A DNA stretch of 64,000 nucleotides, taken from contig CAZAZU010000001.1 in the NCBI GenBank assembly GCA_964490105.1, positions 155,440 to 219,439 on the forward strand, read 5' to 3'. The translations under genes were made by a program, and so were the position numbers. The notes beneath the pieces are model-generated. The model searched no databases. It was not told where the DNA came from and was given only the letters and a program-made list of their open reading frames with translations. Source of the stretch: an uncultured Gammaproteobacteria bacterium. Lineage in GTDB: Bacteria; Patescibacteriota; Microgenomatia; Levybacterales; UBA12049. Shown piece by piece: positions 15,431 to 56,368 of this stretch (the stretch's first letter is position 1; each line of letters starts with the position of its first letter).

Positions 15431-15982
15431 TTATAGGGCTAGCGCAAGTGTAGACTTGGCATTCTTTAACCTATATTCTTCCATTCTATTCATAAAAAAT
15501 GTTACTCTTACAGCCCAAGTTGGAGATGATGCGTACGTAGGCCCGATTATATATGGATCAGAATACTGACCATCTTTAAGGTATCTTGTTCTAAGCCCAT
15601 GAGAGATTGTTTCAATACCTTCAGACCACGATTCAAACCTAATTACATTATCTCCATAAACTCCCCATCCCCATCCGTTATATGACTGATAAGGAATCCT
15701 TTTTCCAAAGGTAGACTCTAATCCTGCAATCGAGGCTACAAGTCTCCAGTCAAGATCGTATTGGTCAGCGTACTTAATAAAATCACCTGCGTAAGGCGCA
15801 AGGGGTGAATCATACTGAAGTAAGAATCCTTCAAGTATTCTAGCTCTGTCATCTACCACCAATGGAGATATTTCAGAAGCAAGTTTAGCCGATGAACCTG
15901 ATGCCTGGTTAGAGGCATAAGAGTTATCAGTGCTTATTAAAAGCAGTACTATTGTTGAAATTATTGCTAGAAGTTTTTTCAT
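15431..15982 (-). CDS. secreted peptidoglycan hydrolase-like protein (glucosaminidase-like), paralog 1
   Basis: signal peptide; SIAGLESTFGK and YNGWGWGVYG blocks shared with 16194..16766. Confidence 0.5.
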   Translation of the reverse strand: MKKLLAIISTIVLLLISTDNSYASNQASGSSAKLASEISPLVVDDRARILEGFLLQYDSPLAPYAGDFIKYADQYDLDWRLVASIAGLESTFGKRIPYQSYNGWGWGVYGDNVIRFESWSEGIETISHGLRTRYLKDGQYSDPYIIGPTYASSPTWAVRVTFFMNRMEEYRLKNAKSTLALAL

Positions 15983-16193
15983 ACTTTATTGGTTTACTAA
16001 ACTTTTGTGTTTAGATTTACTCCCCACTCTGCTTCTGCTTTGCGGGGTAAACCAATAAAAAATCCTAACGTGAGCATTTGGAAAGGCGCACCTTAGGATC
16101 TAGAACGAAGTGTATCATATAACTATAGGACTTGTCAAGATACCGCTATAGGTTTGTTTATTATTTTTGAGGCTAAATAAGGATTATCTGAGG

Positions 16194-16766
16194 TTATTTG
16201 AGCTCATTCATGAAGCTAGTTACGTTTTCTGCCCAGTTATTAGTATTACTTGGATTATACAGTCTTGCTATCTCAAAAGGAGTAACTAGTCCTCTGTCTC
16301 TATATTTTGTAGAAAGTGTTTTGGTGATGGTTTCAATTGCATGAGGATAGTTGCTGAATTTTGTTACTTTAGTGCCATAAATACCCCATCCCCAACAGTT
16401 ATAAGATTCTTTAATTATTCTTTTACAGGCGCCTGATTCCTGAACTGAAATAGCCGGAAGAAGTCTAAAGTCTATATCGTATCTTTCTGCAGCAGCTACG
16501 ATATCAGGTGCGTAAGGCTCTAACGGAGAATTTTTTTTAGCTAAATATTGTCTTACAATCTCGACTTTAGAGTCCTCTTCTATAATAGTATTTTCAATTG
16601 TGTTATCCGCAGGAGGAAGAGCTGCATATGCAATTCCCTGTGTGCTTTCAGAAAGGATTTGGCCTGAGCTTTTAAGAGCCGTAATATGTAATAAATAAGC
16701 TAGGGTTAAAAAGAGAAAAACTGGGGTTCCGAGAAAAAAACCCATTAGGACAGCGAGCTTTTTCAT
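16194..16766 (-). CDS. secreted peptidoglycan hydrolase-like protein, paralog 2
   Basis: signal/TM N-term; AISVQESG and YNCWGWGIYG blocks; paralog of 15431..15982. Confidence 0.5.
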   Translation of the reverse strand: MKKLAVLMGFFLGTPVFLFLTLAYLLHITALKSSGQILSESTQGIAYAALPPADNTIENTIIEEDSKVEIVRQYLAKKNSPLEPYAPDIVAAAERYDIDFRLLPAISVQESGACKRIIKESYNCWGWGIYGTKVTKFSNYPHAIETITKTLSTKYRDRGLVTPFEIARLYNPSNTNNWAENVTSFMNELK

Positions 16767-16871
16767 CAGATTATTTTGTCAATTTAGATTGATTTTGTCA
16801 ACTGAACCAAAGTAGTTCAAACTACTAAGAAGTTGAGTAACTGAGCTCGTTTTGATATACTCCCATTGTTC

Positions 16872-16943
16872 GCGGATGTAGTTCAGCGGTAGAATGTCTC
16901 GTTGCCAACGAGAAGGTCGCCGGTTCGATCCCGGTCATCCGCT
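16872..16943 (+). tRNA. tRNA-Gly(GCC)
   Basis: acceptor GCGGAUG/CAUCCGC; anticodon loop UUGCCAA; T-loop UUCGAUC. Confidence 0.85.
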
Positions 16944-16949
16944 CATTAG

Positions 16950-17765
16950 TTATTGAGAATATCCTCTAGATCTTGCAAGGCTTAAAGCTTTTTCGCTGTC
17001 TCCGCCATATGATTTAAGTCCCTGCTCTACTCCTCCGTGTTTGGAAATGTAATTTGCGGCTCCATGTATAGCATCGACTGCATTATTTATGTCCATATTT
17101 CCATCACCATTTCCATCTGCTCCGTACGCTGTCCATGTGCTAGGCATGAATTGAAGTGGACCTTGAGCGCCTGTTCCATAACCTGAAGAAATGGCTCCGT
17201 CGCGCCCGCCTGTTTCCATATGATGCAACCCATAAAGGATTTCCCAAGGAACACCGTATTTAGCTCCAGCCTCCTTATAAACATTATCGAATGAGCTTGG
17301 TGGACCCTGATTGACGGAAGATGTTTGGGTACCGATAACTTCTTGGGAAGGGTTGGCAGGCGTAGGAGTTGGTGATGGATCTGTAATTTCTTTATAAATT
17401 GCTGCAAGTTTTTCTGACGGATCTTCGACTGTTTCAGGTTTAATTTTCGAGATATTTAGTTCCCAGCCGCTTCTAATTAATCTCGGGTCTTCTATAAAAT
17501 CATTATCATTCCATAGATTTATCCAGAATTTTTGGTCACCATAGTATTCTTCTGCGATTGTATATAAAGTTTCCCCAGATTCAATTACATGATGTATCGG
17601 AGTTGGGGTTGGCGGGACTCTGGTGGGTGTAGGTGTAGCGGATTTAGAGGGAGTAGGTTGAGGTGTCGAGGTTTCATCCGGCGTGGGTGCCGAAATTGGC
17701 TTAAATACTGCCAAAAGAAAGATAGCTCCTGCGACTATGCCTCCCATAAAAACAAATACTAACAA
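16950..17765 (-). CDS. LysM domain lytic transglycosylase (MltB/SLT-like)
   Basis: TM; PT-rich linker; LysM (VIESGETLYTIAEEYYG); SLT motifs HMETG and GAQGPLQFMPSTW. Confidence 0.75.
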   Translation of the reverse strand: MLVFVFMGGIVAGAIFLLAVFKPISAPTPDETSTPQPTPSKSATPTPTRVPPTPTPIHHVIESGETLYTIAEEYYGDQKFWINLWNDNDFIEDPRLIRSGWELNISKIKPETVEDPSEKLAAIYKEITDPSPTPTPANPSQEVIGTQTSSVNQGPPSSFDNVYKEAGAKYGVPWEILYGLHHMETGGRDGAISSGYGTGAQGPLQFMPSTWTAYGADGNGDGNMDINNAVDAIHGAANYISKHGGVEQGLKSYGGDSEKALSLARSRGYSQ

Positions 17766-17802
17766 AGATAAAAGGGGGAGTCAATGTCCTCAAGTAATTT
17801 AA

Positions 17803-18492
17803 TTAAAGTATTCCTTGAGCTTGCATTTTTCGTGCGCATCCTGGGAACTGCGTGAAGATGCTAGATCTTGTTAATAGTTTTTGAACTGCGCCAATTTGGA
17901 CTTCAAGTGGTGCTAAATCTGCTCTTTCGTAACCTGTTCCCATAGCATTCCAAGTTCCAATTGAAAACTGAAAAGCTCCATAGTATCCATTTCCGCTATT
18001 TCTTGTGGCTGTCATTCCTGATTCACAATTTCCTAAAAAGTTGATTTGTGCGTCATTTAGCGGACCACCTAAGGTTGTTGTTGAGGAAACTTGAGATAAA
18101 GCCTGTGTTGAGGTTTGACCAACTACTGGTGTTTGAGTCGGAAAAGGTAAAACGGTAATTATTTTAGCTTGTGCTTCAAGCTTTTCTTTTAAATCTGAGC
18201 TAAGTGTAGCTACTGATGCAGGTTTATTTTCGCTTAGCTTTAATTTCCAGTCTTTTTCAATCAGATTCGGATTTTCGATCCATGGATTCTCTGCCCAGAT
18301 ATTTACCCAATAATCTTTAGATCCATATTCTTTTTCTGCGATTATAGATATAGTGTCACCCTCTTTTACATAGTAGTCCCTCATCTCTTCTTTTACGATT
18401 GTTTGAGATGTAAATTGGGTAGAGGTATTTCCCGATGGATTTAAGAGTACTAATGAAAGCGCTAATACTCCCGAAAGAATATTTTGTTCCAT
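17803..18492 (-). CDS. LysM-like + resuscitation-promoting factor (Rpf) transglycosylase domain protein
   Basis: N-term YYVKEGDTISIIAEKEYG; C-term Rpf-like CESGMTATRNSGNGYYGAFQFSIGTW ... FPGCARK. Confidence 0.7.
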   Translation of the reverse strand: MEQNILSGVLALSLVLLNPSGNTSTQFTSQTIVKEEMRDYYVKEGDTISIIAEKEYGSKDYWVNIWAENPWIENPNLIEKDWKLKLSENKPASVATLSSDLKEKLEAQAKIITVLPFPTQTPVVGQTSTQALSQVSSTTTLGGPLNDAQINFLGNCESGMTATRNSGNGYYGAFQFSIGTWNAMGTGYERADLAPLEVQIGAVQKLLTRSSIFTQFPGCARKMQAQGIL

Positions 18493-22172: not shown

Positions 22173-23027
22173 ATGACAGAAACAAAACAGCTTTTATCAA
22201 TATTTGCAGGAACTACACTGGTAGCTTTTACGGCTTTCCAAACTGCATCTATGACTAGTGTTTCAGCTACTTATGGTGGCGGAGATAACTGTAATCAGGA
22301 AACAACTTATACAGTAGATGAAGACGATGAGTCACATTTGTCATTTTCAGAAACAAGTAACCGAGTAGATGTAGATTTTAATGGTAATAATGATGATAGA
22401 AATCAAGCAATTATTACAGCAGGGTCTGGTTATCAAATAATTACCGTTAGATATGATAATGAAACGAGTAATACTAATTGGATTAATTTTTCAGTTTCAA
22501 ATCCCGTCACGACTATAAATTTAGCTGGAACATCTGATACAACAAGAATCGATAAGGTAGAGGTAAAAGTTAAGAAAGTTTGTGCTACTCCAACTGTCAC
22601 TCCAACTGTTACACCAAGGCCAACTACAGCACCTACTCAAGCGCCAACAGCTATACCGACAGCAGTTCCTACCGTAGTACCAACTACAGCACCTACAGCC
22701 GTTCCAACTGCAGTGCCAACAAGTATCCCATCTATATCACCAGTTCCCACGAATATAATTGAACAGGATGTAAATCCAACTATAACAACTGCTCCAACAG
22801 CTACGCTTACACCAACCGTAACTCCTACTGATACTCCAAGTCAGGGTGGAACATCAAATAATAACAGCTCTTCAAACAATAATTCATCTAATAATGAAGT
22901 AAAAGTTGCTGGAATCAGCGCTTTAGCTTCAACTGGTGGAATAATTGATAGCTTAATGAACTCAGTGTTTGTATCAGGTCTTCTTACCTTTGCGTTTGGT
23001 TTAAAACGTCATGGTAAAAAAAGCTAA
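22173..23027 (+). CDS. cell-surface protein with PT-rich repeats and C-terminal LAxTG-type sorting signal
   Basis: signal peptide; (PTxxPT)n linker; C-term LASTGG + hydrophobic segment + KRHGKKS tail. Confidence 0.7.
   Translation: MTETKQLLSIFAGTTLVAFTAFQTASMTSVSATYGGGDNCNQETTYTVDEDDESHLSFSETSNRVDVDFNGNNDDRNQAIITAGSGYQIITVRYDNETSNTNWINFSVSNPVTTINLAGTSDTTRIDKVEVKVKKVCATPTVTPTVTPRPTTAPTQAPTAIPTAVPTVVPTTAPTAVPTAVPTSIPSISPVPTNIIEQDVNPTITTAPTATLTPTVTPTDTPSQGGTSNNNSSSNNNSSNNEVKVAGISALASTGGIIDSLMNSVFVSGLLTFAFGLKRHGKKS
22590..22760 (+). repeat. in-frame Pro/Thr/Ala/Val tandem coding repeats
   Basis: ACNCCAAC-type codon repeats encoding PTVTPTVTPRPTTAPTQAPTAIPTAVPT... Confidence 0.6.
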
Positions 23028-23568
23028 GCCTAAGAAAGGCAAAAGTCTCCTTCTTCCCCGTCTCATAATTGTCCTAGGAATACTCCTGATGATTTTTTCA
23101 ATATTCTGGAAAATTGATCAAGGCAGTCTTGGATTTAAGAATCAACCGACTCCAATTAGGCAGTTAAATCATGACAGTAAAAAACCTTTAAGCCTTAAAA
23201 TTACAAATGCCAAAATAAGTCTAAATATCGAAGAGAGCGAAATAGTGAATGGCAACTGGGAAGTAAGCAGGCACGGAGTATCTCATTTAAACACTTCTTC
23301 CATACCTGGAAACAGAGGAAATATTGTTATTTACGGCCACAATAAATCAAATATATTGGGTTCATTAGATTCTGTAGAAATTGGCGATGAAATAATAATT
23401 ACAACCAGAAATAATGAAAATCATAAATATGTGGTTAGATCTATTGAAGTGGTCTCCCCTTCTAGGGTAGATGTGATTAATCCTACAGAAATAGAAGTTT
23501 TAACAATTTATACGTGTACAGGATTTTTAGACTCAAAAAGACTTGTAGTGAAAGCAGAACCAGTTTAA
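23011..23568 (+). CDS. sortase (class E/A-like)
   Basis: N-terminal TM, catalytic His (IYGHN), TLxTC motif (LTIYTCTG); overlaps upstream substrate gene by 17 nt. Confidence 0.8.
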   Translation: MVKKAKPKKGKSLLLPRLIIVLGILLMIFSIFWKIDQGSLGFKNQPTPIRQLNHDSKKPLSLKITNAKISLNIEESEIVNGNWEVSRHGVSHLNTSSIPGNRGNIVIYGHNKSNILGSLDSVEIGDEIIITTRNNENHKYVVRSIEVVSPSRVDVINPTEIEVLTIYTCTGFLDSKRLVVKAEPV

Positions 23569-23570
23569 CT

Positions 23571-24446
23571 ATGGTAGCGGATAGAGAAAAACCTCAGGAA
23601 TTAGATAGATTAATTAGCGCATATACTTCAAATGAAGGAGCTGGAATCACTAATGTTGAGCAGGGGCTGTGGGGGTCTCACCATGGTGAACTAGCAATCG
23701 CGGCAGTGGGATTAGCTAGAAGATTTAATGGATATGAATCACTCGATCCAGGACTCACTCGTGAAGTTTATGACGTTATTTCTGATCAGCCTATTTCTAG
23801 CGGTTATCCTCGTATTTATACTATGTTTCATGACTGCACGACATTAGAAGAAGTTAGGGCAAAGCTAGATGTTATGAAGAGACTTTCTCAGGGGCAACCA
23901 GTAAGACTTGAATCTGATGCATTTCCATTTAGAGCATTTGATTTTGGAGAAAGATATCCAGTTGATTTTAAGGAAGGAAGCTATGAGGCGCAGTGGGGTT
24001 TTGGAATTCAATTAAGTGATCGTAGCTATCCCTATGCAGGAAAAGAGCTTATGGCAGTAGAAGGAAGACTTCATACGCATACAAATGTTCTAAATATTCA
24101 AGGAGGCCGACATAAAGCTGATCTAGTCCAGGATTTTAAAGATAGATTTGGAATTCATCCAGCAAATTTACTGTTATTAATGTATTTAAGAATTGGGCAA
24201 ATTTTAGGACACGATAGAGTAGAGATTGCAGGTAAAACAGACAGAGAATATAACAGAAGAGAAGTTGAAAGCACCCTTTATGATATTCCTAGAAATTATT
24301 TTAGATTAAGAATTGATCCAGAGACAGGAAGATATCGATTTGACGGTGCTACTCGAGATAGAATTCTTGAAAAGTTTTTAGGGAAAGCGCCCTTTTTAGC
24401 GGAGGCTTTTGGAAAACTTGACGCTTATCTAGCTAGCTCTCGATGA
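23571..24446 (+). CDS. hypothetical protein (mildly GC-shifted)
   Basis: about 292 aa from ATG at 23571 immediately after sortase stop (ORF track extends to 23514); no recognisable motif. Confidence 0.5.
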   Translation: MVADREKPQELDRLISAYTSNEGAGITNVEQGLWGSHHGELAIAAVGLARRFNGYESLDPGLTREVYDVISDQPISSGYPRIYTMFHDCTTLEEVRAKLDVMKRLSQGQPVRLESDAFPFRAFDFGERYPVDFKEGSYEAQWGFGIQLSDRSYPYAGKELMAVEGRLHTHTNVLNIQGGRHKADLVQDFKDRFGIHPANLLLLMYLRIGQILGHDRVEIAGKTDREYNRREVESTLYDIPRNYFRLRIDPETGRYRFDGATRDRILEKFLGKAPFLAEAFGKLDAYLASSR

Positions 24447-39858: not shown

Positions 39859-39912
39859 GTTTTAGAATTTCGTTTGCCTTGAATACTTATGGTTTAGTAT
39901 AATACTTCTTGC

Positions 39913-39995
39913 GCCGCGGTGGTGGAATGGTAGACACGAAGGCCTTAAGAGCCTTTTCCCTTTCGGGAGTGGAGGTTCGAGTCCTCTTCGCGGTA
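39913..39995 (+). tRNA. tRNA-Leu(TAA)
   Basis: type II tRNA, anticodon loop CUUAAGA, long variable arm, T-loop UUCGAGU. Confidence 0.8.
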
Positions 39996-40010
39996 CATAG
40001 AGATATTTTT

Positions 40011-40083
40011 CGGGGTTTAGCTCAGTTGGTAGAGCGCGCGGTTTGGGACCGTGAGGTCGGAGGTTCGAGCCCTCTAACCCCGA
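40011..40083 (+). tRNA. tRNA-Pro(TGG)
   Basis: acceptor CGGGGUU/AACCCCG, anticodon loop UUUGGGA. Confidence 0.8.
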
Positions 40084-40089
40084 CTTATT

Positions 40090-40779
40090 ATGCCAGAACA
40101 AGGAGAACCTAGACCGCCAATTTCCAGGGTTGAACCAGCTGAAGTATCAAGGAATATTAGAGATTTAGCTGTTGATTATGCTGGATATTTTGGAGTCTAT
40201 GTTGCAGGCAGAGGAGAATATGATAGGGCGTCAGACAGGGTTGGGCCTCTGGAGGGGATAGTTGAAAGATTTCCCGCTCAAGCAGATAGAATAAAATTAT
40301 TAGATGCACATTTAGAAAGAGCGTATGAACTGAAAAAAGGATTTTTTACCGCTCGGGTGCCATCCTACGATAGAGATCCAGAAATAGATTTAGGTAGTCG
40401 TTTAACTTCTTTTTTCGGCAAGCCTCAGCCGAGAGTATCAGTTTCAGGAACACCCCCCGATTATACCTTTGCATCAGTTAGACACCCAGTGGCTCGGCCG
40501 TTGTTGGATTTGATTAATATCGCTATCGCAGTAGATGATGATGTTATGGATAATCCAAACGAGCGCGCGAATAGACTGAAGTCAAATGGTGACAAAATGG
40601 TTCAGGATTTAGTTGGAAAGGACAGAGACCCAAAGAAACTTCTTAGAATCACAGACGTAGCAGTATTAGAGGCTGTATTTGATGGAAGATTAAGATTACC
40701 TGCTTCTCCTGGTAAGCCTTTATATCCAGATCAAGAAATTCGCGTTGGTTCCAGCGAATTACCAGACGAAAGTGCGTGA
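40090..40779 (+). CDS. hypothetical protein, GC-shifted orphan abutting tRNA-Pro
   Basis: 229 aa; ATG a few nt after tRNA 3' end with no SD; N-term GEPRPPIS resembles 49804..50163 (GEERPPIG). Confidence 0.5.
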   Translation: MPEQGEPRPPISRVEPAEVSRNIRDLAVDYAGYFGVYVAGRGEYDRASDRVGPLEGIVERFPAQADRIKLLDAHLERAYELKKGFFTARVPSYDRDPEIDLGSRLTSFFGKPQPRVSVSGTPPDYTFASVRHPVARPLLDLINIAIAVDDDVMDNPNERANRLKSNGDKMVQDLVGKDRDPKKLLRITDVAVLEAVFDGRLRLPASPGKPLYPDQEIRVGSSELPDESA

Positions 40780-40782
40780 TCT

Positions 40783-41373
40783 TTAGTTTTCAAGTTGCGC
40801 ATAAGCAACAGTCCTTTCCGAGTAGTTTTTTGTAGCTTTATCGAATTCGCCCTCACAGGTTATAAGATTTAAATATTTTCCAGATGTATCTGCGAAAACT
40901 TCCTGAAGCGGAAATTTATCAAAAGGATATGTTTCGATCCTGGTAACTATGAAAACTAACTCTTTTCCGTTTTTATCAGTTACTTTTATCTCATCTCCCT
41001 TTTGAAGTTTTTTAAGATCCCAGAAAACTGCAGGGGCACCTTTTGGATCGTCCAAATGTCCTGCCATGACAGCGCTTCCGATCTCCCCTGGTTTCGCTCC
41101 CAAGTTATACCAGCCGACATTCTTAGCATCTTTTGGAACATCCATATTTTTCTTTTCATCTAATCCTACGTATTCCACATTGGAAGTGATACTAATACTC
41201 GGAATTTCAAGCTTAACTGGAAGTCCTATGTCTTTTTGGTCTTCAGGGTTTTGATGCGCGATTTTACCTGAAGTTGTGGTTCTGGTTGAAGATTCAGTAG
41301 CGGACAAATTTCTATAAAGAAAGCCCGCTAAAATCACACCTATGAATAGAATAAGAAATGATAGTTTCTTCAT
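40783..41373 (-). CDS. sortase family protein (second copy)
   Basis: signal/TM; LEIPSISI, catalytic His (VMAGHLDD), Cys (LNLITCEG), Arg (ERTVAY). Confidence 0.75.
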   Translation of the reverse strand: MKKLSFLILFIGVILAGFLYRNLSATESSTRTTTSGKIAHQNPEDQKDIGLPVKLEIPSISITSNVEYVGLDEKKNMDVPKDAKNVGWYNLGAKPGEIGSAVMAGHLDDPKGAPAVFWDLKKLQKGDEIKVTDKNGKELVFIVTRIETYPFDKFPLQEVFADTSGKYLNLITCEGEFDKATKNYSERTVAYAQLEN

Positions 41374-41412
41374 TAATAAATACAGACACCTTAAATTAAG
41401 GTGTCTTTCACG

Positions 41413-41562
41413 TTATCTTCCAAATCCCGTGGATGGTGCTCCTGCGGGAACGGTAGCGCTTGTTGGTGCGGGAGTCACAGTTGGGGTCGCAGTTTGAGCC
41501 TGCGCTAATCCGACTACTCCTGCAAACATAAGCGTAAGTGCTAGTATTGTTGCTTTTAACAT
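41413..41562 (-). CDS. unannotated small secreted peptide (49 aa) upstream of sortase
   Basis: not in ORF track (<60 aa); SD GGGGGTGA 5 nt before ATG; MLKATILALTLMFAGVVGLAQA signal then TATPTVTPAPTSATVPAGAPSTGFGR; hairpin AGACACCTTAA-ATT-TAAGGTGTCT before sortase start. Confidence 0.4.
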   Translation of the reverse strand: MLKATILALTLMFAGVVGLAQAQTATPTVTPAPTSATVPAGAPSTGFGR

Positions 41563-41676
41563 TTCATCACCCCCTTCAAGCAATTAGTGTCTAATATTGA
41601 TGTGAAAGTCTAGCAAATCAGGAGTAAGAGAAGCATAAGAAAGAACTGGAAATTTGGTGCTTGGGGAAAACAACTG

Positions 41677-41747
41677 GAGCGGGTGAAGGGAATCGAACCC
41701 TCGTATCAACTTTGGAAAAGTTGTGTTCTACCATTGAACTACACCCG
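41677..41747 (-). tRNA. tRNA-Gly(TCC)
   Basis: acceptor GCGGGUG/CACCCGC; anticodon loop UUUCCAA; T-loop UUCGAUU. Confidence 0.8.
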
Positions 41748-41877
41748 CTAAATGGGACAAGCCTCGCGATTTTTCCCAACGATTTCCCTTTAAGGATCAT
41801 AAAATCGATACTTTTAGGCCACCGATTTTATGTTTTTAATTCTACCAAAATTGTGGGCTTAGTTCAATTTATTGAAT

Positions 41878-42642
41878 TTAAGGAGTCGGAGTAGTTTCTT
41901 CTGAAAGGCCGAGTTCGCTCCCTACAATTACCAATACTTCCCCATCTTCACCAGTTGCAAATTTCTTAACTTTTCCAACTGGCCCTCTTTTCTCTAGAAC
42001 TTTTGTTAGAGCTTCGATATATGAATCTGGTACATCTTCATTAACTGTGATTATTGTATCTGTATAGCTTGATTTATCAGCATTTCCTATATCTCCTACT
42101 TTAAATCCATCTTCTTCAAGCATTTCTCCGACACTTGCTCCCTCCCCTGCAATTCCGCTTCCATTCTGAACTTCTATGATATATGCCTCTTTATCAAGTG
42201 GTTCTTCTGTTGGAGTTGGAGAAGCTTCTGGGATTTCAAGTTTTTTCTCAGGTTCTTTCCTAAGCTTACTGGTATCGAAATTATCGCTGAAATATAAGAA
42301 ACCTCCAAATGCTAAAAATCCGATAGGAACAACGATAAGAATCGTTAAGAGTAATTTTTTAAATCCAAATCTGCTTCTAGAATTATCGTCCCCAATATTT
42401 ACAGGCATTTCCTCTGAATTTTCTTTTGTTTCAGTCTCCTCTATTTCTTCGGATTCTTTTTCTTCAGTTTCGTTAGATTCCTGCGATTTAATCTCTTCTT
42501 CGGCTGATTCAGCTTTTTCTGCCGGTGTAACTAGTTCTTCAATTTTAGGAGTGTTATCTTCAGTCTCTTCTACTTCTATCGTTACCTTAGCGCTTGGGAT
42601 TTCTGTGACTTTTTTAAATGTTTTCGGTTTTTTAATTGCCAT
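41878..42642 (-). CDS. membrane-anchored acidic protein with LytR_C domain
   Basis: Glu-rich N-term, one TM, C-terminal IIEVQNGSGIAGEGASVGEMLEEDGFKVGDIGNA typical of LytR/CpsA/Psr C-terminal domain. Confidence 0.65.
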   Translation of the reverse strand: MAIKKPKTFKKVTEIPSAKVTIEVEETEDNTPKIEELVTPAEKAESAEEEIKSQESNETEEKESEEIEETETKENSEEMPVNIGDDNSRSRFGFKKLLLTILIVVPIGFLAFGGFLYFSDNFDTSKLRKEPEKKLEIPEASPTPTEEPLDKEAYIIEVQNGSGIAGEGASVGEMLEEDGFKVGDIGNADKSSYTDTIITVNEDVPDSYIEALTKVLEKRGPVGKVKKFATGEDGEVLVIVGSELGLSEETTPTP

Positions 42643-43812: not shown

Positions 43813-44286
43813 TTATTTAGTTTCGTCAAAAGGAGGAAGCTCTCTTTTTTCAGCTGCACCCTCAATTTTACTATTTACTTTGTTTTCTGTTTGAAAAACT
43901 ACTTTAAAGATTTTATTTTTCTTTCTCCAAAATTTAGAAGCATCTTTTAGAGTATCTAGGAATATATCTAAATCCTTTTCTAGGAGTGATTCTGAGTTTA
44001 TTATGAATAGAATGTATCCTTTTTCACTTTTTATCCAATAAAGATCGGAAATGCATTCATCAAAAGCATTCCAATTGTTACCAAAATAGTACGGAAACTG
44101 TAGTGCGCTAGAAAATTCTTTAAAAAGTTCTTTTGAGTTTGTACAGTTTTCGCCGCGTATAAGTTTTGAAACTACTCCATTTTTTTCTGAGTCGTTTGAA
44201 AATATATTAATATCCCTAGGCCTTGTCTTTACCAAAAAAAATGATGAACTGCCTGAGGTCAATAATTCATTCCAGTTTAAATTCAT
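43813..44286 (-). CDS. barstar-like ribonuclease inhibitor family protein
   Basis: LQFPYYFGNNWNAFDECISDL matches barstar core; no barnase-like gene adjacent. Confidence 0.6.
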   Translation of the reverse strand: MNLNWNELLTSGSSSFFLVKTRPRDINIFSNDSEKNGVVSKLIRGENCTNSKELFKEFSSALQFPYYFGNNWNAFDECISDLYWIKSEKGYILFIINSESLLEKDLDIFLDTLKDASKFWRKKNKIFKVVFQTENKVNSKIEGAAEKRELPPFDETK

Positions 44287-52599: not shown

Positions 52600-54780
52600 T
52601 TGCTTAGCTATTATGAAATCATGAATGGTATTTCTGTGGTAATCCCAACATATAATGAAAAAGGGACAATTGGTGATTTGATCAAAAGGATAGTAGCTCC
52701 ACTTGAAAAGGAAGAAATTAGCTATGAATTAATATTTATTGATGATAATTCTACGGATGGAACTCAGCAGGAGATTTTAAAACATGATCGAAAAAAACCC
52801 GTAATTTTTGAACTAAAAAAGGGAGAGCAAGGAAAAGCCTACTCTTTACTGCAGGGATTTAAACTAGCAAAGTATGATGCTATAGCCATGATTGACGCTG
52901 ATCTGCAATATCCGCCCGAAGTAATTCCAAGTATGTATGAAAAACTGGATCAATTTGATATCGTAGTGGCAGAACGAAGAATAAGAAAAACCAGTTTTCT
53001 AAGAAGTTTGTTGAGTCATGGATTTATTAGATTTTTTGGAAAAACACTTCATCACCTAGAAACTGACGTGCAATCGGGCCTAAAGATATTTAAAAAAGAA
53101 ATTTTTGAAAAAGTTGAACTTAACCCCACTCCTTGGACATTCGATTTAGAATTTTTGGTTAGATCTAGAGAGCAAGGTTATAAAATTACAGGACATCCAA
53201 TTACGTTCGAAGAGAGAAAATATGGAAAATCAAAAGTATCCATTTTCAAAACGATTTTTGAGATCGGGATATCTGCAGTAAAGCTTAAGTTTAGCAATCA
53301 AGCAATTGTAACTCAGTCATCGGGTTTAAATAAATTAAATAGTCATCAGTTTTTTCATAAAGGAAATAAATATGTAACATTTAATCAGTTTAGGCATGGC
53401 GAGAGTGCATTTTCCAGTATAAATGCAAGACAAAAAAATATTTTAATAATGATTGCTGTTCTATTTTTAGTTGGATTGGTTATAGATTGGCATTTAACCA
53501 TAATTTTGGGAATTGCTTTCTTAACTATTGTTTACTTAGCTGACATAGTGTTTTATTTATATCTAACAATTAAGAGTTTAGCTACAACTCCTGAAATTCT
53601 ATTTAAACCCGAAGAGCTTCAGAGTATTCCGGAAAACGAATTACCCACATACACAATATTATGCCCGCTATATAAGGAGTGGCATGTTTTACCGCAGTTC
53701 GTGAAAGCTATAAACGATTTAGATTATCCTAAGGAAAAACTTCAAGTGCTACTTTTACTTGAAGAGGATGACGAAGAAAGTATAAATAGAATTAATTCAA
53801 TGAATTTACCTTTTTATTTTCAAAAACTCGTAGTCCCGCATTCTATGCCAAAAACTAAACCAAAAGCATGTAACTATGGATTACATTATGCTACCGGAAA
53901 ATATTCTGTTATTTTTGATGCGGAAGATATACCGGAAAAGGAGCAGTTAAGAAAGGCTGTGGTAGCGTTTAACAAGTTACCTGGATCAACAATTTGTCTT
54001 CAGGCAAAGTTAAATTTCTATAATCCAAAGCAAAATTTACTAACACATTTGTTTACATCGGAATATTCACTTTGGTTTGATTTAATTTTACCAGGGCTTC
54101 AATCAGTTAACGCTCCGATACCTCTTGGTGGAACCTCAAATCATTTTAGAACAGCAGATCTTCGAAGTATGAATGGCTGGGACGCATTCAACGTGACAGA
54201 GGACGCAGATTTAGGAGTTAGGCTAGCATCTAGAGGACTTAAAACAGCAATTATTGATTCTACTACCTATGAGGAAGCAAATAGTCTAACGAGAAATTGG
54301 TTGGGTCAAAGATCAAGATGGATTAAGGGATATATTCAAACATTCTTAGTACATACAAGAAAAAAGAATTCTAATCGCGGGATTAAAGATTCATTATTGT
54401 TTCAATTTGTTATCGGAGGAAAAATATTTCTGTTGTTCATTAATCCCGTTATGTGGATCATAATTCTCTTATATTTTGGATTAAGGCCAATATCCGGACC
54501 TTTTATAGAATCTTTTTTCCCTACTCCGGTGCTGTATATGGGAGTAGCGTCTCTTTTGATAGGTAACTTCGTTTATCTTTATTCGTATATGATTGGCTGT
54601 GCTAAAAGAGAAAAATATGAACTCATTAAATATGCATATCTCGTACCTATATATTGGCTGATGATGAGTTTGGCGGCCTGGGTTGCACTGTATCAGCTTA
54701 TAAGACAGCCTCATTATTGGTTCAAAACTCTTCATGGGCTACATTTAACACCAGAAAATAAATCTGCTTTAGCTTCATAA
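52600..54780 (+). CDS. fused dual family-2 glycosyltransferase (Dpm1-like GT2 + membrane + cellulose-synthase-like GT2)
   Basis: N-term VVIPTYNE ... DDNSTDGT, DAD; central TMs; second module YTILCPLYKEW, DAEDIP, QRSRW (QxxRW) processive motif; C-terminal TMs. Confidence 0.75.
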   Translation: MLSYYEIMNGISVVIPTYNEKGTIGDLIKRIVAPLEKEEISYELIFIDDNSTDGTQQEILKHDRKKPVIFELKKGEQGKAYSLLQGFKLAKYDAIAMIDADLQYPPEVIPSMYEKLDQFDIVVAERRIRKTSFLRSLLSHGFIRFFGKTLHHLETDVQSGLKIFKKEIFEKVELNPTPWTFDLEFLVRSREQGYKITGHPITFEERKYGKSKVSIFKTIFEIGISAVKLKFSNQAIVTQSSGLNKLNSHQFFHKGNKYVTFNQFRHGESAFSSINARQKNILIMIAVLFLVGLVIDWHLTIILGIAFLTIVYLADIVFYLYLTIKSLATTPEILFKPEELQSIPENELPTYTILCPLYKEWHVLPQFVKAINDLDYPKEKLQVLLLLEEDDEESINRINSMNLPFYFQKLVVPHSMPKTKPKACNYGLHYATGKYSVIFDAEDIPEKEQLRKAVVAFNKLPGSTICLQAKLNFYNPKQNLLTHLFTSEYSLWFDLILPGLQSVNAPIPLGGTSNHFRTADLRSMNGWDAFNVTEDADLGVRLASRGLKTAIIDSTTYEEANSLTRNWLGQRSRWIKGYIQTFLVHTRKKNSNRGIKDSLLFQFVIGGKIFLLFINPVMWIIILLYFGLRPISGPFIESFFPTPVLYMGVASLLIGNFVYLYSYMIGCAKREKYELIKYAYLVPIYWLMMSLAAWVALYQLIRQPHYWFKTLHGLHLTPENKSALAS

Positions 54781-54784
54781 GAAC

Positions 54785-56368
54785 ATGATTAATAAATTTC
54801 ATTCTAAGATAAATTATTTGTTGGATAAGCATCCCAATCTAATTATTTTTATTGTTGCTGGTGTTTTAAGTTCTATTTCCACAATTTATTTTTTTACCCA
54901 AGGGCAAATAACTGCTTACGGAGACTCTGAGTCACATTTAAATATTGCAAAAAGGGTTGTAGCCAGTCCTACCCCAGGATTTGCACAGCTTGGAGGAATA
55001 TGGCTCCCGTTGCCGCATTTATTGATGACACCTTTCGTCTCGATCGATCAATTATGGAGAACTGGGCTAGCTGGTTCAATTGTATCCGGTATCGCTTATG
55101 CTATCTCGAGTTTATTTATTTATAAATTAATTTACTTGCTGACTAAAAATAAAGTAGCCTCTGTTTTTGGTTTTTTAGTTTTTGCACTAAATGCAAATAT
55201 TTTATACATGCAATCCACACCGATGACCGAGGTTTTGTTAATTGCTTTCTTCATTCTCTCTATGTACTTTTTTATAAAATTTATATTAAATCATAATGAT
55301 AATATCTCCCTCATTGCCGCAGCTTTTTTTGGTTTTTGTGCAACTTTAACAAGATATGATGGGTGGCTGCTTGTTGGAATAGAAGCTTTAATTATACTGG
55401 CTATCTTTGTAAAAAATAGATTTAGCGTATTCTATCAAGGTCTTTTTTTCTTATTCTCCACACTAGGTTTTGTCGGAGTTTTAATTTGGTTAGCCTGGGA
55501 TTTTTTAATTTTAGGAGACGCCTTGTATTTTACAAATAGTCCTTTTTCCGCTAAATCTCAGCAGCAGGGATGGTTAGCGCGTGGTGAATTGCCAACATAT
55601 CATGATATTGTTCAGTCCTTTTTATATTATTCAGTAACCTCGCTCCATAATATTGGATTTTTAATATCAATATTAGCTGTCCTATCTTTGATTATTTTAA
55701 TTCTGGATAAAAGCATAAGACAGAGAATATTTATAATTCTATTATTATTTGTACCTTTTATTTTTTATGTATTAACTTTGTTTATGGGACAATCAGTTAT
55801 CTTTATTCCTGATTTAACTCCAAAAAGTTTTGAATGGAATTTGTTTAACGTAAGATATGGAATTATGATGGTGCCAGCCGCCGCAATTCTATTAGGATAT
55901 TTGTTTTCAAAAAGATTCCTTGCTCTAAAGTTATTTATAGTAATTGTACTATTCGCTCAATCTTTATTGTTTTTTAGTGGAATCCAAAAAACTATTACCC
56001 TTGAAGACGGAACAGTAGGCTTATCTTCTTCAAAGAAAGTAGATGCAGAGAAATTTTTAACGAAGAATTATAAGGATGGATATGTATTAATGGATGACTA
56101 TGCAAGATCAGTGAGTATTTTAAGAACAACTATACCAATGCAAAATGTTATCTACATAGGAAATAAACCTTATTGGGAAGAGAGCTTAGAGACTCCTGAA
56201 AAATATGCAGAGTGGATTGTTCTTCAGAAGGATGACACTTTATGGAAAAATTTTATGGAAAATAAACGTAAAGAAGAAAGACTGTATAAATATTTTAAGA
56301 AAACATATACTTCTAATGAAATTTTAGTATTTCAGAGGTCAGATGTAGAAGTAAGTAGAGGAAATTAA
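54785..56368 (+). CDS. polytopic membrane protein, putative GT-C type glycosyltransferase
   Basis: about 12 TM; periplasmic-loop acidic motif YGDSESH near TM1 as in GT-C enzymes; co-transcribed with GT2 gene. Confidence 0.45.
   Translation: MINKFHSKINYLLDKHPNLIIFIVAGVLSSISTIYFFTQGQITAYGDSESHLNIAKRVVASPTPGFAQLGGIWLPLPHLLMTPFVSIDQLWRTGLAGSIVSGIAYAISSLFIYKLIYLLTKNKVASVFGFLVFALNANILYMQSTPMTEVLLIAFFILSMYFFIKFILNHNDNISLIAAAFFGFCATLTRYDGWLLVGIEALIILAIFVKNRFSVFYQGLFFLFSTLGFVGVLIWLAWDFLILGDALYFTNSPFSAKSQQQGWLARGELPTYHDIVQSFLYYSVTSLHNIGFLISILAVLSLIILILDKSIRQRIFIILLLFVPFIFYVLTLFMGQSVIFIPDLTPKSFEWNLFNVRYGIMMVPAAAILLGYLFSKRFLALKLFIVIVLFAQSLLFFSGIQKTITLEDGTVGLSSSKKVDAEKFLTKNYKDGYVLMDDYARSVSILRTTIPMQNVIYIGNKPYWEESLETPEKYAEWIVLQKDDTLWKNFMENKRKEERLYKYFKKTYTSNEILVFQRSDVEVSRGN

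What the first reader, a model, noticed from the sequence alone, without database searches (positions are those of the whole stretch)
40783..41562. Unannotated small secreted Pro/Thr-rich peptide gene directly upstream of the second sortase
A 49-aa ORF with an ideal SD encodes a signal peptide followed by TATPTVTPAPTSATVPAGAPSTGFGR. It is missed by the ORF track because of its length. A strong hairpin separates it from the sortase start, and a second hairpin follows it. A tiny exported peptide paired with a sortase could be a minimal sortase substrate, a pilin-like primer or a RiPP-like precursor.
Basis: partly seen in the sequence, partly recalled or inferred. Interest (0 to 1): 0.55.

Follow-up and report, generated by a model that had tools for sequence, protein, structure and literature searches.

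The report
Tiny secreted peptide paired with sortase
The 49-codon gene is real and belongs to a large, undescribed family of tiny secreted Pro/Thr-rich peptides that always sit just upstream of a sortase in ultra-small (CPR) bacteria; they end in a stripped-down sortase tag (APxTG plus about three residues), so they are most likely the enzyme's own minimal substrate.

Summary
The small ORF (window 41413-41562, minus strand, 49 aa) is real. It has a near-consensus Shine-Dalgarno site and a Sec-type signal peptide. Between close relatives dN/dS is 0.08-0.24. It is not called in its own genome's gene calls, but orthologues elsewhere are annotated as hypothetical proteins.

It belongs to a family of at least 271 protein clusters of 44-95 aa, with no Pfam or NCBIfam model. 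Named members are all CPR/Patescibacteria. The shared architecture is:
- a signal peptide ending A|Q-T, with the Gln invariant;
- a Thr/Pro/Ser-rich spacer of 16-53 aa;
- the motif (V)P-x-G-A-P-x-T-G-[FRYM]-[GA];
- only 1-8 further residues, with no hydrophobic segment or basic tail.

In 9 of 9 context look-ups a sortase gene follows immediately on the same strand, while other neighbours differ. Sortases with such short-tail partners form one clade. The sister clade sits next to canonical LPxTG+TM+basic-tail proteins. A strong, non-homologous hairpin lies between peptide and sortase in 15 of 21 loci.

Best reading: a dedicated, passenger-less sortase substrate made in excess over its enzyme. 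The acceptor is unknown and inferred to be peptidoglycan. Pilin-like and RiPP-like readings are not supported.

The parts
41413..41562 (-). Small gene, 49 aa plus stop: precursor of the secreted Pro/Thr-rich peptide
   Evidence: ORF and translation. Purifying selection, dN/dS 0.08-0.24. Member of a family of at least 271 clusters.
41566..41574 (-). Shine-Dalgarno sequence GGGGGTGAT, 3 nt before the ATG
   Evidence: Read directly from the sequence. Identical in L001. Over-extended family ORFs read 'KGGD/E..M', which reflects the same GGAGGTGA element.
41497..41562 (-). Sec-type signal peptide, residues 1-22 (MLK + hydrophobic core + AQA); predicted signal peptidase I cut between A22 and Q23
   Evidence: Position -1 is A or G in 129/133 members and a Gln follows in 133/133. 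This is a heuristic, not SignalP.
41428..41496 (-). Predicted final peptide Q23-T45 (QTATPTVTPAPTSATVPAGAPST): invariant N-terminal Gln, Thr/Pro-rich spacer, ending at the Thr that would be joined by the sortase
   Evidence: Family statistics: T 33%, P 22%, S 13%, A 11%; length 16-53 aa; Lys in 7/133.
41425..41439 (-). APSTG: LPXTG-like sortase motif (family consensus VP-x-G-A-P-x-T-G)
   Evidence: P, T and G are invariant in 133/133 and A precedes P in 128/133.
41416..41424 (-). Three-residue tail FGR after the predicted cleavage site; there is no hydrophobic segment and no basic tail
   Evidence: Tail length is 1-8 aa (mode 3) across the family. The first tail residue is F/R/Y/M/L and the second is G/A.
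41384..41406 (-). Intercistronic stem-loop AGACACCTTA-ATT-TAAGGTGTCT followed by GTATTTATTA; terminator-like
   Evidence: z = -4.4. A compensatory A-U to G-C change occurs in L001. Strong unrelated hairpins occupy the same position in 15 of 21 distinct loci.
40783..41373 (-). Membrane-anchored sortase, 196 aa, class-F-like; catalytic His106, Cys173, Arg187
   Evidence: Pfam Sortase 1.5e-24. NCBIfam class_F_sortase 150.5 bits, cut-off 166. H106, C173 and R187 are invariant in 32 homologues. AF2 pLDDT 83 and Foldseek probability 1.0 to solved sortases.
41675..41748 (-). tRNA-Gly(UCC) directly upstream on the same strand; possibly co-transcribed (context, not shown to be part of the unit)
   Evidence: The same arrangement occurs in L001. 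A promoter-like site lies at 41867-41839.

Best explanation
The ORF is a real gene for a precursor made of a Sec signal peptide, a short unstructured Thr/Pro-rich stretch and a truncated sortase tag. It is the dedicated substrate of the sortase encoded 39 nt downstream.

Proposed steps:
1. The peptide is translated efficiently from a strong Shine-Dalgarno site. It is made in excess over the sortase, because a terminator-like hairpin lies between the genes and the sortase start has no well-placed ribosome-binding site.
2. It is exported through Sec and cut by signal peptidase I after AQA, leaving an N-terminal Gln that may cyclise to pyroglutamate.
3. The membrane-anchored sortase attacks the Thr45-Gly46 bond of APSTG with Cys173 and releases GFGR.
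4. The sortase then transfers the 23-residue peptide QTATP...APST to an amine acceptor, most likely the peptidoglycan stem peptide or lipid II. The wall thereby carries many short, possibly O-glycosylated, Pro/Thr-rich peptides.

Shown here: the gene is real and under protein-level selection; the family architecture; the invariant P-x-T-G; the strict peptide-sortase adjacency; the clade structure of the sortases; the recurrent hairpin. Inferred: export, both cleavages, the acceptor, pyroglutamate, glycosylation and the expression ratio.
For: The gene is real:
- dN/dS is 0.075-0.24, with 9-17 synonymous codon changes per pair among the window, L001 and L004.
- The identical ORF is present in two independent assemblies.

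The family:
- A profile search of 1.84 billion representatives gives 19 hits at E<1e-3.
- A profile search of the 5.8-billion collection gives 271 clusters at E<=0.01, of which the 120 listed are 47-95 aa.
- In 133 members P-x-T-G is invariant, the tail is 1-8 aa, and a Gln follows the signal peptide in all.

Pairing with the sortase:
- In 9 of 9 look-ups starting from peptides, a PF04203 sortase gene comes next on the same strand, among otherwise unrelated neighbours.
- Starting from sortase relatives, 10 of 80 metagenome loci plus L001 carry a family member directly upstream.
- Two more loci carry larger proteins ending in the same short signal: L006 ...APPVTGRGKE and L014 ...APSTGHAQ. L014 also starts A|QT.

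Same enzyme family with classical substrates:
- The sister clade of these sortases lies next to roughly 285-aa proteins with [LVA]P[NQG]TG, a hydrophobic segment and a basic tail.

Dedicated pair:
- The window holds a second, different sortase (23011-23568) with its own canonical substrate, LASTG + TM + KRHGKKS.
- No other ORF in the window ends in P-x-T-G plus a short tail.

The enzyme looks active:
- His, Cys and Arg are invariant and the model has a sortase fold.

The hairpin:
-.

Precedent that a hydrophobic anchor is not chemically required:
- S. aureus SrtA incorporates exogenous LPETG peptides lacking the membrane-spanning domain into its wall (PMC4723074).
Against: - No direct evidence of translation, export or cleavage exists.
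- The classical retention elements (hydrophobic segment, basic tail) are absent. From my own knowledge of the staphylococcal protein A truncation experiments, removing these elements leads to secretion rather than anchoring, so efficient capture by the sortase is not guaranteed.
- The first motif position is Ala, not Leu, and no natural APxTG-specific sortase was found in the literature search.
- The simple anchoring model does not require the invariant Gln at the mature N-terminus. Other secreted proteins of this window do not share it.
- A complex prediction could not be run.
- Sortase-first sampling also found clade members without an upstream peptide (L039, L067).
Confidence: 0.6

Rival explanations
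1. Sortase-stitched polymer or ring. The sortase joins Thr45 of one peptide to the alpha-amine of the invariant N-terminal Gln of another peptide (head-to-tail polymer, finally anchored to the wall) or of the same peptide (cyclic peptide). Both conserved ends would then be recognition sites.
For: The only strongly conserved features of the mature peptide are its two ends: Q-T at the N-terminus and VPxGAPxTG at the C-terminus. Gln at +1 is specific to this family and to the L014 short-tail protein. It is not a general property of secreted proteins in this window. The hairpin implies a large excess of peptide over enzyme, as expected for a building block.
Against: No natural sortase is known (my knowledge) to use a Gln alpha-amine, or to polymerise substrates other than through Lys side chains. 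N-terminal Gln tends to cyclise to pyroglutamate, which would block the amine. There is no direct evidence. L014 and L006 show the same signal on larger proteins, which fits simple anchoring better.
Confidence: 0.12
2. Membrane-to-wall tether. The N-terminal hydrophobic segment is not cleaved and stays in the membrane. The sortase links the C-terminal Thr to peptidoglycan, giving a Braun-lipoprotein-like strap. The uncleaved signal anchor would also replace the missing C-terminal retention segment.
For: The absence of a C-terminal hydrophobic segment leaves the N-terminal one as the only membrane-retention element. The extended Pro/Thr spacer of variable length (16-53 aa) would suit a spacer role.
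Against: The c-region is a good signal peptidase I site (small residues at -1 in 129/133 and at -3 in most). The h-region of about 16-19 residues is typical of cleaved signal peptides.
Confidence: 0.08
3. Not a transpeptidation substrate. The peptide is a secreted or wall-associated factor with another role (signal, adhesive coat, or competitive pseudo-substrate that regulates the sortase), and is merely co-transcribed with the sortase.
For: The sorting signal is incomplete by the classical definition. The function of class F sortases is unknown, and a quadruple class F deletion in Actinoplanes has no phenotype (PMC13251363).
Against: Invariance of P-x-T-G, strict adjacency in 9 of 9 look-ups, and the same motif at the extreme C-terminus of larger proteins next to clade members are hard to explain without recognition by the sortase.
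Confidence: 0.12
4. Chance ORF, or a purely regulatory upstream ORF or RNA element whose peptide sequence does not matter.
For: It is short, of low complexity, and not called by the gene finder in its own genome.
Against: dN/dS is 0.08-0.24. Architecture and motifs are conserved over a family whose DNA sequences are unrelated. The Shine-Dalgarno site is strong and conserved. There is no Rfam match.
Confidence: 0.02

Closest known systems
Canonical sortase substrates with a C-terminal cell-wall sorting signal (LPXTG + hydrophobic segment + basic tail), handled by housekeeping sortases of classes A, E and F
   Same: N-terminal Sec signal peptide; a Pro/Thr-rich 'wall-spanning' type segment; a P-x-T-G pentapeptide near the C-terminus; a membrane-anchored His-Cys-Arg sortase encoded next door. 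The same window has a textbook example at 22173-23568.
   Different: There is no passenger domain at all. Ala replaces Leu at motif position 1. Only 1-8 residues follow TG, with no hydrophobic segment or charged tail. The N-terminal Gln is invariant.
Dedicated sortase-substrate operons (for example class B SrtB with IsdC, or class C sortases with their pilins)
   Same: A specialised sortase is encoded adjacent to its own substrate, in a genome that also has another sortase with other substrates.
   Different: The substrate here is a peptide of about 25 residues with no fold, no pilin Lys and no haem- or ligand-binding domain. The sortase is class-F-like, not class B or C.
Class F sortases (NCBIfam NF033748; first studied in Propionibacterium acnes, LPXTG-specific; physiological role unknown - PMC8225981, PMC13251363)
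   Same: It is the best-scoring sortase class for the partner enzyme (150.5 bits, E 2.7e-44). Some relatives are named class F by NCBI.
   Different: The score is below the curated cut-off of 166. The inferred motif is APxTG with a truncated signal.
Synthetic short LPETG peptides used for in-vivo wall labelling, and engineered APxTG-specific SrtA variants (F40, A1-22) used for histone H3 semisynthesis (PMC4723074, PMC8248031)
   Same: Short peptides with a sortase motif and no hydrophobic anchor are accepted by a sortase and incorporated into the wall. APATG, the histone H3 sequence, is the exact motif of 55 of 133 family members.
   Different: Those are laboratory constructs and evolved enzymes. 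Here the short substrate and the apparent APxTG preference are natural and genomically encoded.
Bacteroidetes 'Q-rule' (Gln at +1 of signal peptidase I substrates, converted to pyroglutamate) - from my own knowledge, not tested here
   Same: Invariant Gln immediately after the predicted signal peptidase site.
   Different: In this organism it is specific to this family, not proteome-wide. No glutaminyl cyclase was looked for.

Membership tests
Canonical cell-wall sorting signal (CWSS) protein | N-terminal Sec signal peptide | tested here: met
   MLK + a 16-residue hydrophobic core + AQA. Heuristic only; SignalP was not available.
Canonical cell-wall sorting signal (CWSS) protein | LPXTG-type pentapeptide near the C-terminus | tested here: met
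   APSTG at residues 42-46. P, T and G are invariant in 133/133 members. Position 1 is Ala (128/133) rather than Leu.
Canonical cell-wall sorting signal (CWSS) protein | Hydrophobic membrane-spanning segment after the motif | tested here: not met
   Only FGR follows TG. Family tails are 1-8 residues.
Canonical cell-wall sorting signal (CWSS) protein | Positively charged C-terminal tail | tested here: not met
   There is a single terminal Arg here. Close orthologues end in K or S, and family tails are mostly FG + N/K/S/P...
Canonical cell-wall sorting signal (CWSS) protein | Cleavage between T and G and transfer to peptidoglycan by sortase | not testable with these tools
   Needs biochemistry or mass spectrometry.
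Class F sortase (NCBIfam NF033748) - partner enzyme | HMM score at or above the curated cut-off (166 bits) | tested here: not met
   150.5 bits, E 2.7e-44. It is the best class by far; class E comes next at 45 bits. Hence 'class-F-like'.
Sortase superfamily (PF04203) - partner enzyme | Sortase domain, beta-barrel fold, His-Cys-Arg triad with the TLxTC-type motif | tested here: met
   Pfam 86.6 bits, cut-off 26.6. H106, LITC173 and R187 are invariant in 32 homologues. AF2 pLDDT 83 and Foldseek probability 1.0 to solved sortases.
Sortase-assembled pilin | Pilin-motif Lys as nucleophile and Ig-like (CnaA/CnaB) domains | tested here: not met
   The window peptide has no Lys in its mature part. 126 of 133 members have none. 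The mature length of 16-53 aa is too short for an Ig fold.
RiPP precursor peptide | Leader/core organisation with a conserved RiPP-tailoring enzyme in the neighbourhood | tested here: not met
   The N-terminal part is a Sec signal peptide. Across 9 contexts the only conserved neighbour is the sortase. No Cys, and few residues typical of RiPP chemistry.
Any curated protein family for the peptide (Pfam-A, NCBIfam) | Match above the curated threshold | tested here: not met
   There are 0 Pfam hits. NCBIfam gives only low-complexity noise far below cut-offs for this peptide and 4 other members. The precomputed Pfam column is '-' for all 120 listed members.

The most novel reading that the evidence does not exclude
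The pair is a two-gene machine that makes a new kind of surface material. The sortase uses the invariant N-terminal Gln of one exported peptide as the nucleophile for the APxT-acyl intermediate of another. It thereby stitches 20-50-residue Thr/Pro-rich units head-to-tail into a ribosomally encoded, probably glycosylated, mucin-like polymer (or a cyclic peptide) on the surface of CPR bacteria. This would be a sortase-built fibre without any pilin fold or Lys isopeptide.
Probability: 0.1. Interest if true: 0.9.

Novelty: new variant of a known kind. Interest (0 to 1): 0.66.

Why it matters
- **A candidate substrate for the CPR sortase.** Sortase is reported as near-ubiquitous in Microgenomates (PMC6744442), yet none of the papers found here identify what it acts on. 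This finding proposes a concrete, conserved and very simple substrate for one CPR sortase clade.
- **An open question becomes testable.** As of 2026 the physiological role of class F sortases is described as unknown (PMC13251363). A cognate peptide-enzyme pair of about 25 and about 150 residues is an easy in-vitro system.
- **It challenges the textbook sorting signal.** The textbook signal needs a hydrophobic segment and a charged tail. Here a whole family, and some larger proteins, carry only the motif plus about 3 residues.
- **Possible tool enzymes.** The natural motif APxTG, often exactly APATG, is the sequence for which sortases had to be engineered to ligate histone H3 tracelessly (PMC8248031). 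These enzymes may therefore be useful reagents.
- **Gene calling.** It is another case of a conserved small gene missed in its own genome.

Tried and rejected
- **Second hairpin.** I looked after the sortase stop (z = -0.03), in the leader (z = +2.0) and with the terminator scan. Only the intercistronic hairpin exists.
- **Known RNA element.** Rfam at E<=1 over 40600-42000 gives only the tRNA.
- **Known protein family for the peptide.** Pfam and NCBIfam give nothing above noise.
- **Peptide-sortase complex.** I built an alignment of 16 natural pairs fused through a Gly-Ser linker plus 42 unpaired sortases (A5).
- **Contig look-up of P0001.** It is not on record.
- **Other tail-less P-x-T-G ORFs in the window.** Only spurious off-frame hits appeared.
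- **Proteome-wide Q-rule as the explanation for Gln at +1.** Rejected, because other secreted proteins in the window start with S, T, A or K.
- **Relatedness of the two unknown ORFs flanking the two sortases** (40090-40779 and 23514-24446). No similarity.
- **Literature searches.** I searched for sortase with Patescibacteria, CPR or Microgenomates, for class F sortase with sorting signal, and for the APxTG, APATG and APSTG motifs. No description of this peptide family was found. The CPR 'Pam' pilus preprint is unrelated: it describes donor-strand-exchange pilins, and sortase is mentioned only as background.
- **Pilin and RiPP readings.** Rejected on composition and context.
Full report
**1. 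What is there**

On the minus strand of the window, an ATG at 41562 opens a 49-codon ORF ending at TAA 41415-41413. It encodes MLKATILALTLMFAGVVGLAQAQTATPTVTPAPTSATVPAGAPSTGFGR.
- GGGGGTGAT lies 3 nt upstream of the ATG (41574-41566). It is one mismatch from the AGGAGGTGAT anti-16S consensus. A longer TTG-initiated reading (56 aa) would swallow this site, so the ATG is the start.
- Thirty-nine nucleotides downstream begins a 196-aa membrane-anchored sortase (41373-40783). It scores Pfam Sortase 1.5e-24 and NCBIfam class_F_sortase 150.5 bits, just under the 166-bit cut-off.
- His106, Cys173 (LITC) and Arg187 are invariant in 32 homologues. An AlphaFold model (pLDDT 83) matches solved sortases of several classes with probability 1.0.
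- A tRNA-Gly(UCC) lies about 110 nt upstream on the same strand.
- The organism is a CPR bacterium. GC is 36.7% and the closest annotated orthologue is from Candidatus Levybacteria.

**2. Checking the observation**

- The hairpin between peptide and sortase is real: 41406-41384, a 10-bp stem followed by GTATTTATTA, -14.4 kcal/mol, z = -4.4, with no shuffle folding as well.
- A second hairpin is not there. The stretch after the sortase stop folds like shuffled sequence. The leader is less structured than shuffles. The terminator scan finds one site only.
- 'Unannotated' is true for this genome. The exact peptide is absent from a collection of 15 billion proteins, while the identical sortase is present. 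No gene is called at that place in the source contig, although the ORF is intact in two independent assemblies.
- Orthologues elsewhere are called as hypothetical proteins.

**3. It is a real protein-coding gene**

Three close relatives carry the ORF at 86-92% amino-acid identity, against 71-76% for the sortase: L001, L004/P0002 and P0001.
- Window versus L001 shows 17 synonymous codon changes and 4 amino-acid changes, dN/dS 0.075. The three pairs range from 0.075 to 0.24.
- dS is lower in the peptide gene (0.3-0.65) than in the sortase (1.2-1.9). This would fit codon constraint in a highly expressed gene, but that is an inference.

**4. It belongs to a large, undescribed family**

- A profile of three sequences, searched exhaustively against 1.84 billion representatives, gave 19 hits at E<1e-3. 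Eighteen of them are 44-67 aa proteins of the same design.
The 120 listed are 47-95 aa. None has a Pfam domain, and every source name given is 'hypothetical protein'.
- The organisms named are Levybacteria, Roizmanbacteria, 'Patescibacteria group' and Saccharimonadales, all CPR.

In 133 members:

| Feature | Result |
|---|---|
| P-x-T-G | invariant (133/133) |
| Ala before the Pro | 128/133 |
| Extended consensus | T-V-P-[SGA]-G-A-P-[AS]-T-G-[FRYML]-[GA] |
| Residues after TG | 1-8, mode 3 |
| Gln after the signal peptide's A/G | every member |
| Thr after that Gln | 106/133 |
| Stretch from that Gln to the motif Thr | 16-53 residues, median 27 |
| Composition of that stretch | 33% T, 22% P, 13% S, 11% A |
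| Lys in that stretch | 7/133 members |
| Cys in that stretch | never |

Gln is also invariant in alignment A4. Other secreted proteins in the window do not have Gln at +1, so that residue is a family feature and not a habit of the organism's signal peptidase.

**5. It is tied to the sortase**

Starting from peptides:
- All 9 context look-ups show a PF04203 sortase gene as the very next gene on the same strand, at a gap of 5-140 nt. The peptides were P0002, P0186, P0208, P0220, P0226, P0210, P0176, P0231 and P0138.
- The remaining neighbours differ from locus to locus.

Starting from the sortase:
- L001 and 10 of 80 metagenome loci have a family member directly upstream: L005, L007, L008, L009, L010, L013, L017, L023, L030 and L073.
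- Two further loci have larger proteins ending in the same short signal: L006, 795 aa...APPVTGRGKE, and L014, 193 aa...APSTGHAQ. L014 also begins ...VHA|QTT.
- About two dozen higher-GC, Chloroflexota-like loci instead have a protein of about 285 aa ending in [LVA]P[NQG]TG, a hydrophobic segment and a basic tail. That is a textbook sorting signal.

On a neighbour-joining tree of the catalytic domains, the short-tail loci fall in one clade and the canonical ones in another. That tree came from a rough script that missed some loci and mislabelled a few; L087/88 and L032 are noted.

The window itself also has a second, unrelated sortase (23011-23568, only 21 bits to the first). Its own canonical substrate lies upstream: 22173-23027, ending ...LASTGG + TM + KRHGKKS. 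No other ORF in the window ends in P-x-T-G plus a short tail. The peptide and the class-F-like sortase therefore look like a dedicated two-gene module.

**6. The hairpin is a conserved feature of the module**

- In 15 of 21 distinct peptide-sortase spacers there is a strong stem-loop (z between -3.7 and -7.1), with unrelated sequences from locus to locus.
- Between the window and L001 the closing pair changes from A-U to G-C.
- Several are followed by U-rich tracts; L085 is an example.
- In the window, the only purine-rich stretch before the sortase ATG (AAGGTG) is part of the 3' arm of the stem and lies 13 nt from the ATG.
- The natural reading is a leaky terminator or 3'-stabiliser that gives much more peptide than enzyme, as expected for a stoichiometric substrate. 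This is inference; no expression data were available.

**7. How it most likely works**

The best-supported model is that the peptide is a passenger-less sortase substrate.
1. It is exported through Sec and cleaved after AQA.
2. It is recognised through VPAGAPSTG and cleaved between Thr45 and Gly46 by Cys173.
3. It is transferred to an amine, most plausibly the peptidoglycan stem peptide or lipid II.

Points bearing on the model:
- The missing hydrophobic segment and charged tail are the main difficulty, since these retain classical substrates at the membrane. Chemically they are dispensable: S. aureus SrtA incorporates exogenous LPETG peptides lacking the membrane-spanning domain into its wall (PMC4723074).
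- The invariant Gln could protect the free N-terminus as pyroglutamate. It could alternatively be the acceptor in a head-to-tail reaction (rival 1). The uncleaved signal peptide could also act as the membrane anchor (rival 2).
- Thr/Pro-rich secreted segments are classic O-glycosylation targets (my knowledge). In L092 a double-GT2 gene and a PMT_2-family gene sit immediately upstream of the peptide. Their orthologues are at 52600-56368 in the window, with 52% identity for the PMT_2-like protein. That is a single linkage and only a hint.

**8. Comparison with what is known**

- The system works like a sortase/LPXTG pair but fails two of the defining features of a canonical sorting signal. It also uses Ala at motif position 1.
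- The enzyme is class-F-like but below the curated threshold.
- The pilin and RiPP readings fail their defining features (see the membership table).
- In the held literature I found nothing on this peptide family. Sortase is reported as near-ubiquitous in Microgenomates without identified substrates (PMC6744442). The role of class F sortases is described as unknown in 2026 (PMC13251363).
- APxTG appears only as the motif of laboratory-evolved SrtA variants made to ligate histone H3, whose own sequence is APATG (PMC8248031). APATG is the motif of 55 of the 133 family members.

**9. Verdict**

The 'minimal sortase substrate' reading is supported by comparative evidence, though not by any direct assay. 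The other two readings are not supported.

I rate it a new variant of a known kind: a natural sortase system with a truncated sorting signal, an APxTG motif and a substrate reduced to a bare linker, widespread in CPR bacteria. Interest is moderately high. It gives a simple, testable handle on what the CPR sortase and class-F-like sortases do. It questions the generality of the tripartite sorting signal. It may also supply useful ligases.

Noticed in passing
window 22173-23568 (+): First sortase operon. A 284-aa secreted protein has a long Thr/Pro/Ala linker and a textbook sorting signal (…ALASTGG + hydrophobic segment + KRHGKKS). It overlaps by 17 nt the start of a 185-aa sortase whose best NCBIfam hits are classes D, C and E, all far below cut-off. 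The genome therefore carries both a canonical and a tail-less sortase system.
   Followed up: partly
window 52600-56368 (+); L092 1-2897: A 726-aa double-GT2 glycosyltransferase is followed by a 527-aa multi-pass protein with no Pfam hit here. That protein is 52% identical to a PMT_2-family protein in L092. In L092 the same gene pair lies immediately upstream of the peptide-sortase pair. This is a possible O-glycosylation link to the Thr-rich peptide, but it was seen only once.
   Followed up: partly
L006 69-2456; L014 1864-2445; L037 2061-2417; L075 2473-2913 (-): Larger secreted proteins next to related sortases end in the same kind of tail-less signal: ...APPVTGRGKE, ...APSTGHAQ, ...FPDTGGGGLSK and ...LPATGGGWGATQ. 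The truncated sorting signal is therefore not limited to the mini-peptides.
   Followed up: partly
L011 1099-1803; L031 2-373; L045 1801-2484: In higher-GC relatives, proteins with a shared ...SIHNVE[GA]QHAA[MI]L.DL[VI]G... region lie upstream of the sortase. They end in [LAM]P[QAG]TG[RGM]GG followed by 14-18 non-hydrophobic residues. This is a third, intermediate kind of signal without a membrane segment.
   Followed up: no
window 41675-41748 (-) and 41839-41867 (-): tRNA-Gly(UCC) lies directly upstream of the peptide gene on the same strand, and the same arrangement occurs in L001. The only sigma-70-like promoter match in the region (TTGAAC-17-TAGAAT with TG) lies upstream of the tRNA. The tRNA, peptide and sortase may therefore share a transcript.
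   Followed up: no
window 40090-40779 (+): A 229-aa ORF convergent with the sortase has no Pfam or NCBIfam match. Its first part, together with the adjacent tRNA genes, lies in a stretch of locally raised GC (0.41-0.48 against a window mean of 0.367). It is called as a gene in the source contig. It is unrelated to the unknown 310-aa ORF that follows the first sortase (23514-24446).
   Followed up: partly
window 43813-44286 (-): A barstar-like (barnase inhibitor) protein of 157 aa (PF01337, 3.6e-22). No adjacent barnase-like gene was looked for.
   Followed up: no
window 15431-18492 (-): A run of small secreted cell-wall hydrolase-like genes (glucosaminidase-like, SLT and transglycosylase-like domains). 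One of them has a Pro/Thr-rich linker similar in composition to the peptide.
   Followed up: no
window, whole: There are thirteen tRNA genes in 64 kb, several of them overlapped by spurious ORFs of 60-80 aa in the mechanical ORF list (for example 39862-40112).
   Followed up: no
L001 (CAYXTY010000098.1): This 2.4-kb contig carries the closest relative of the locus. It is labelled 'uncultured Gammaproteobacteria bacterium' in its record, but its gene content and GC (39%) match the Levybacteria-like window. It is probably a binning error.
   Followed up: no
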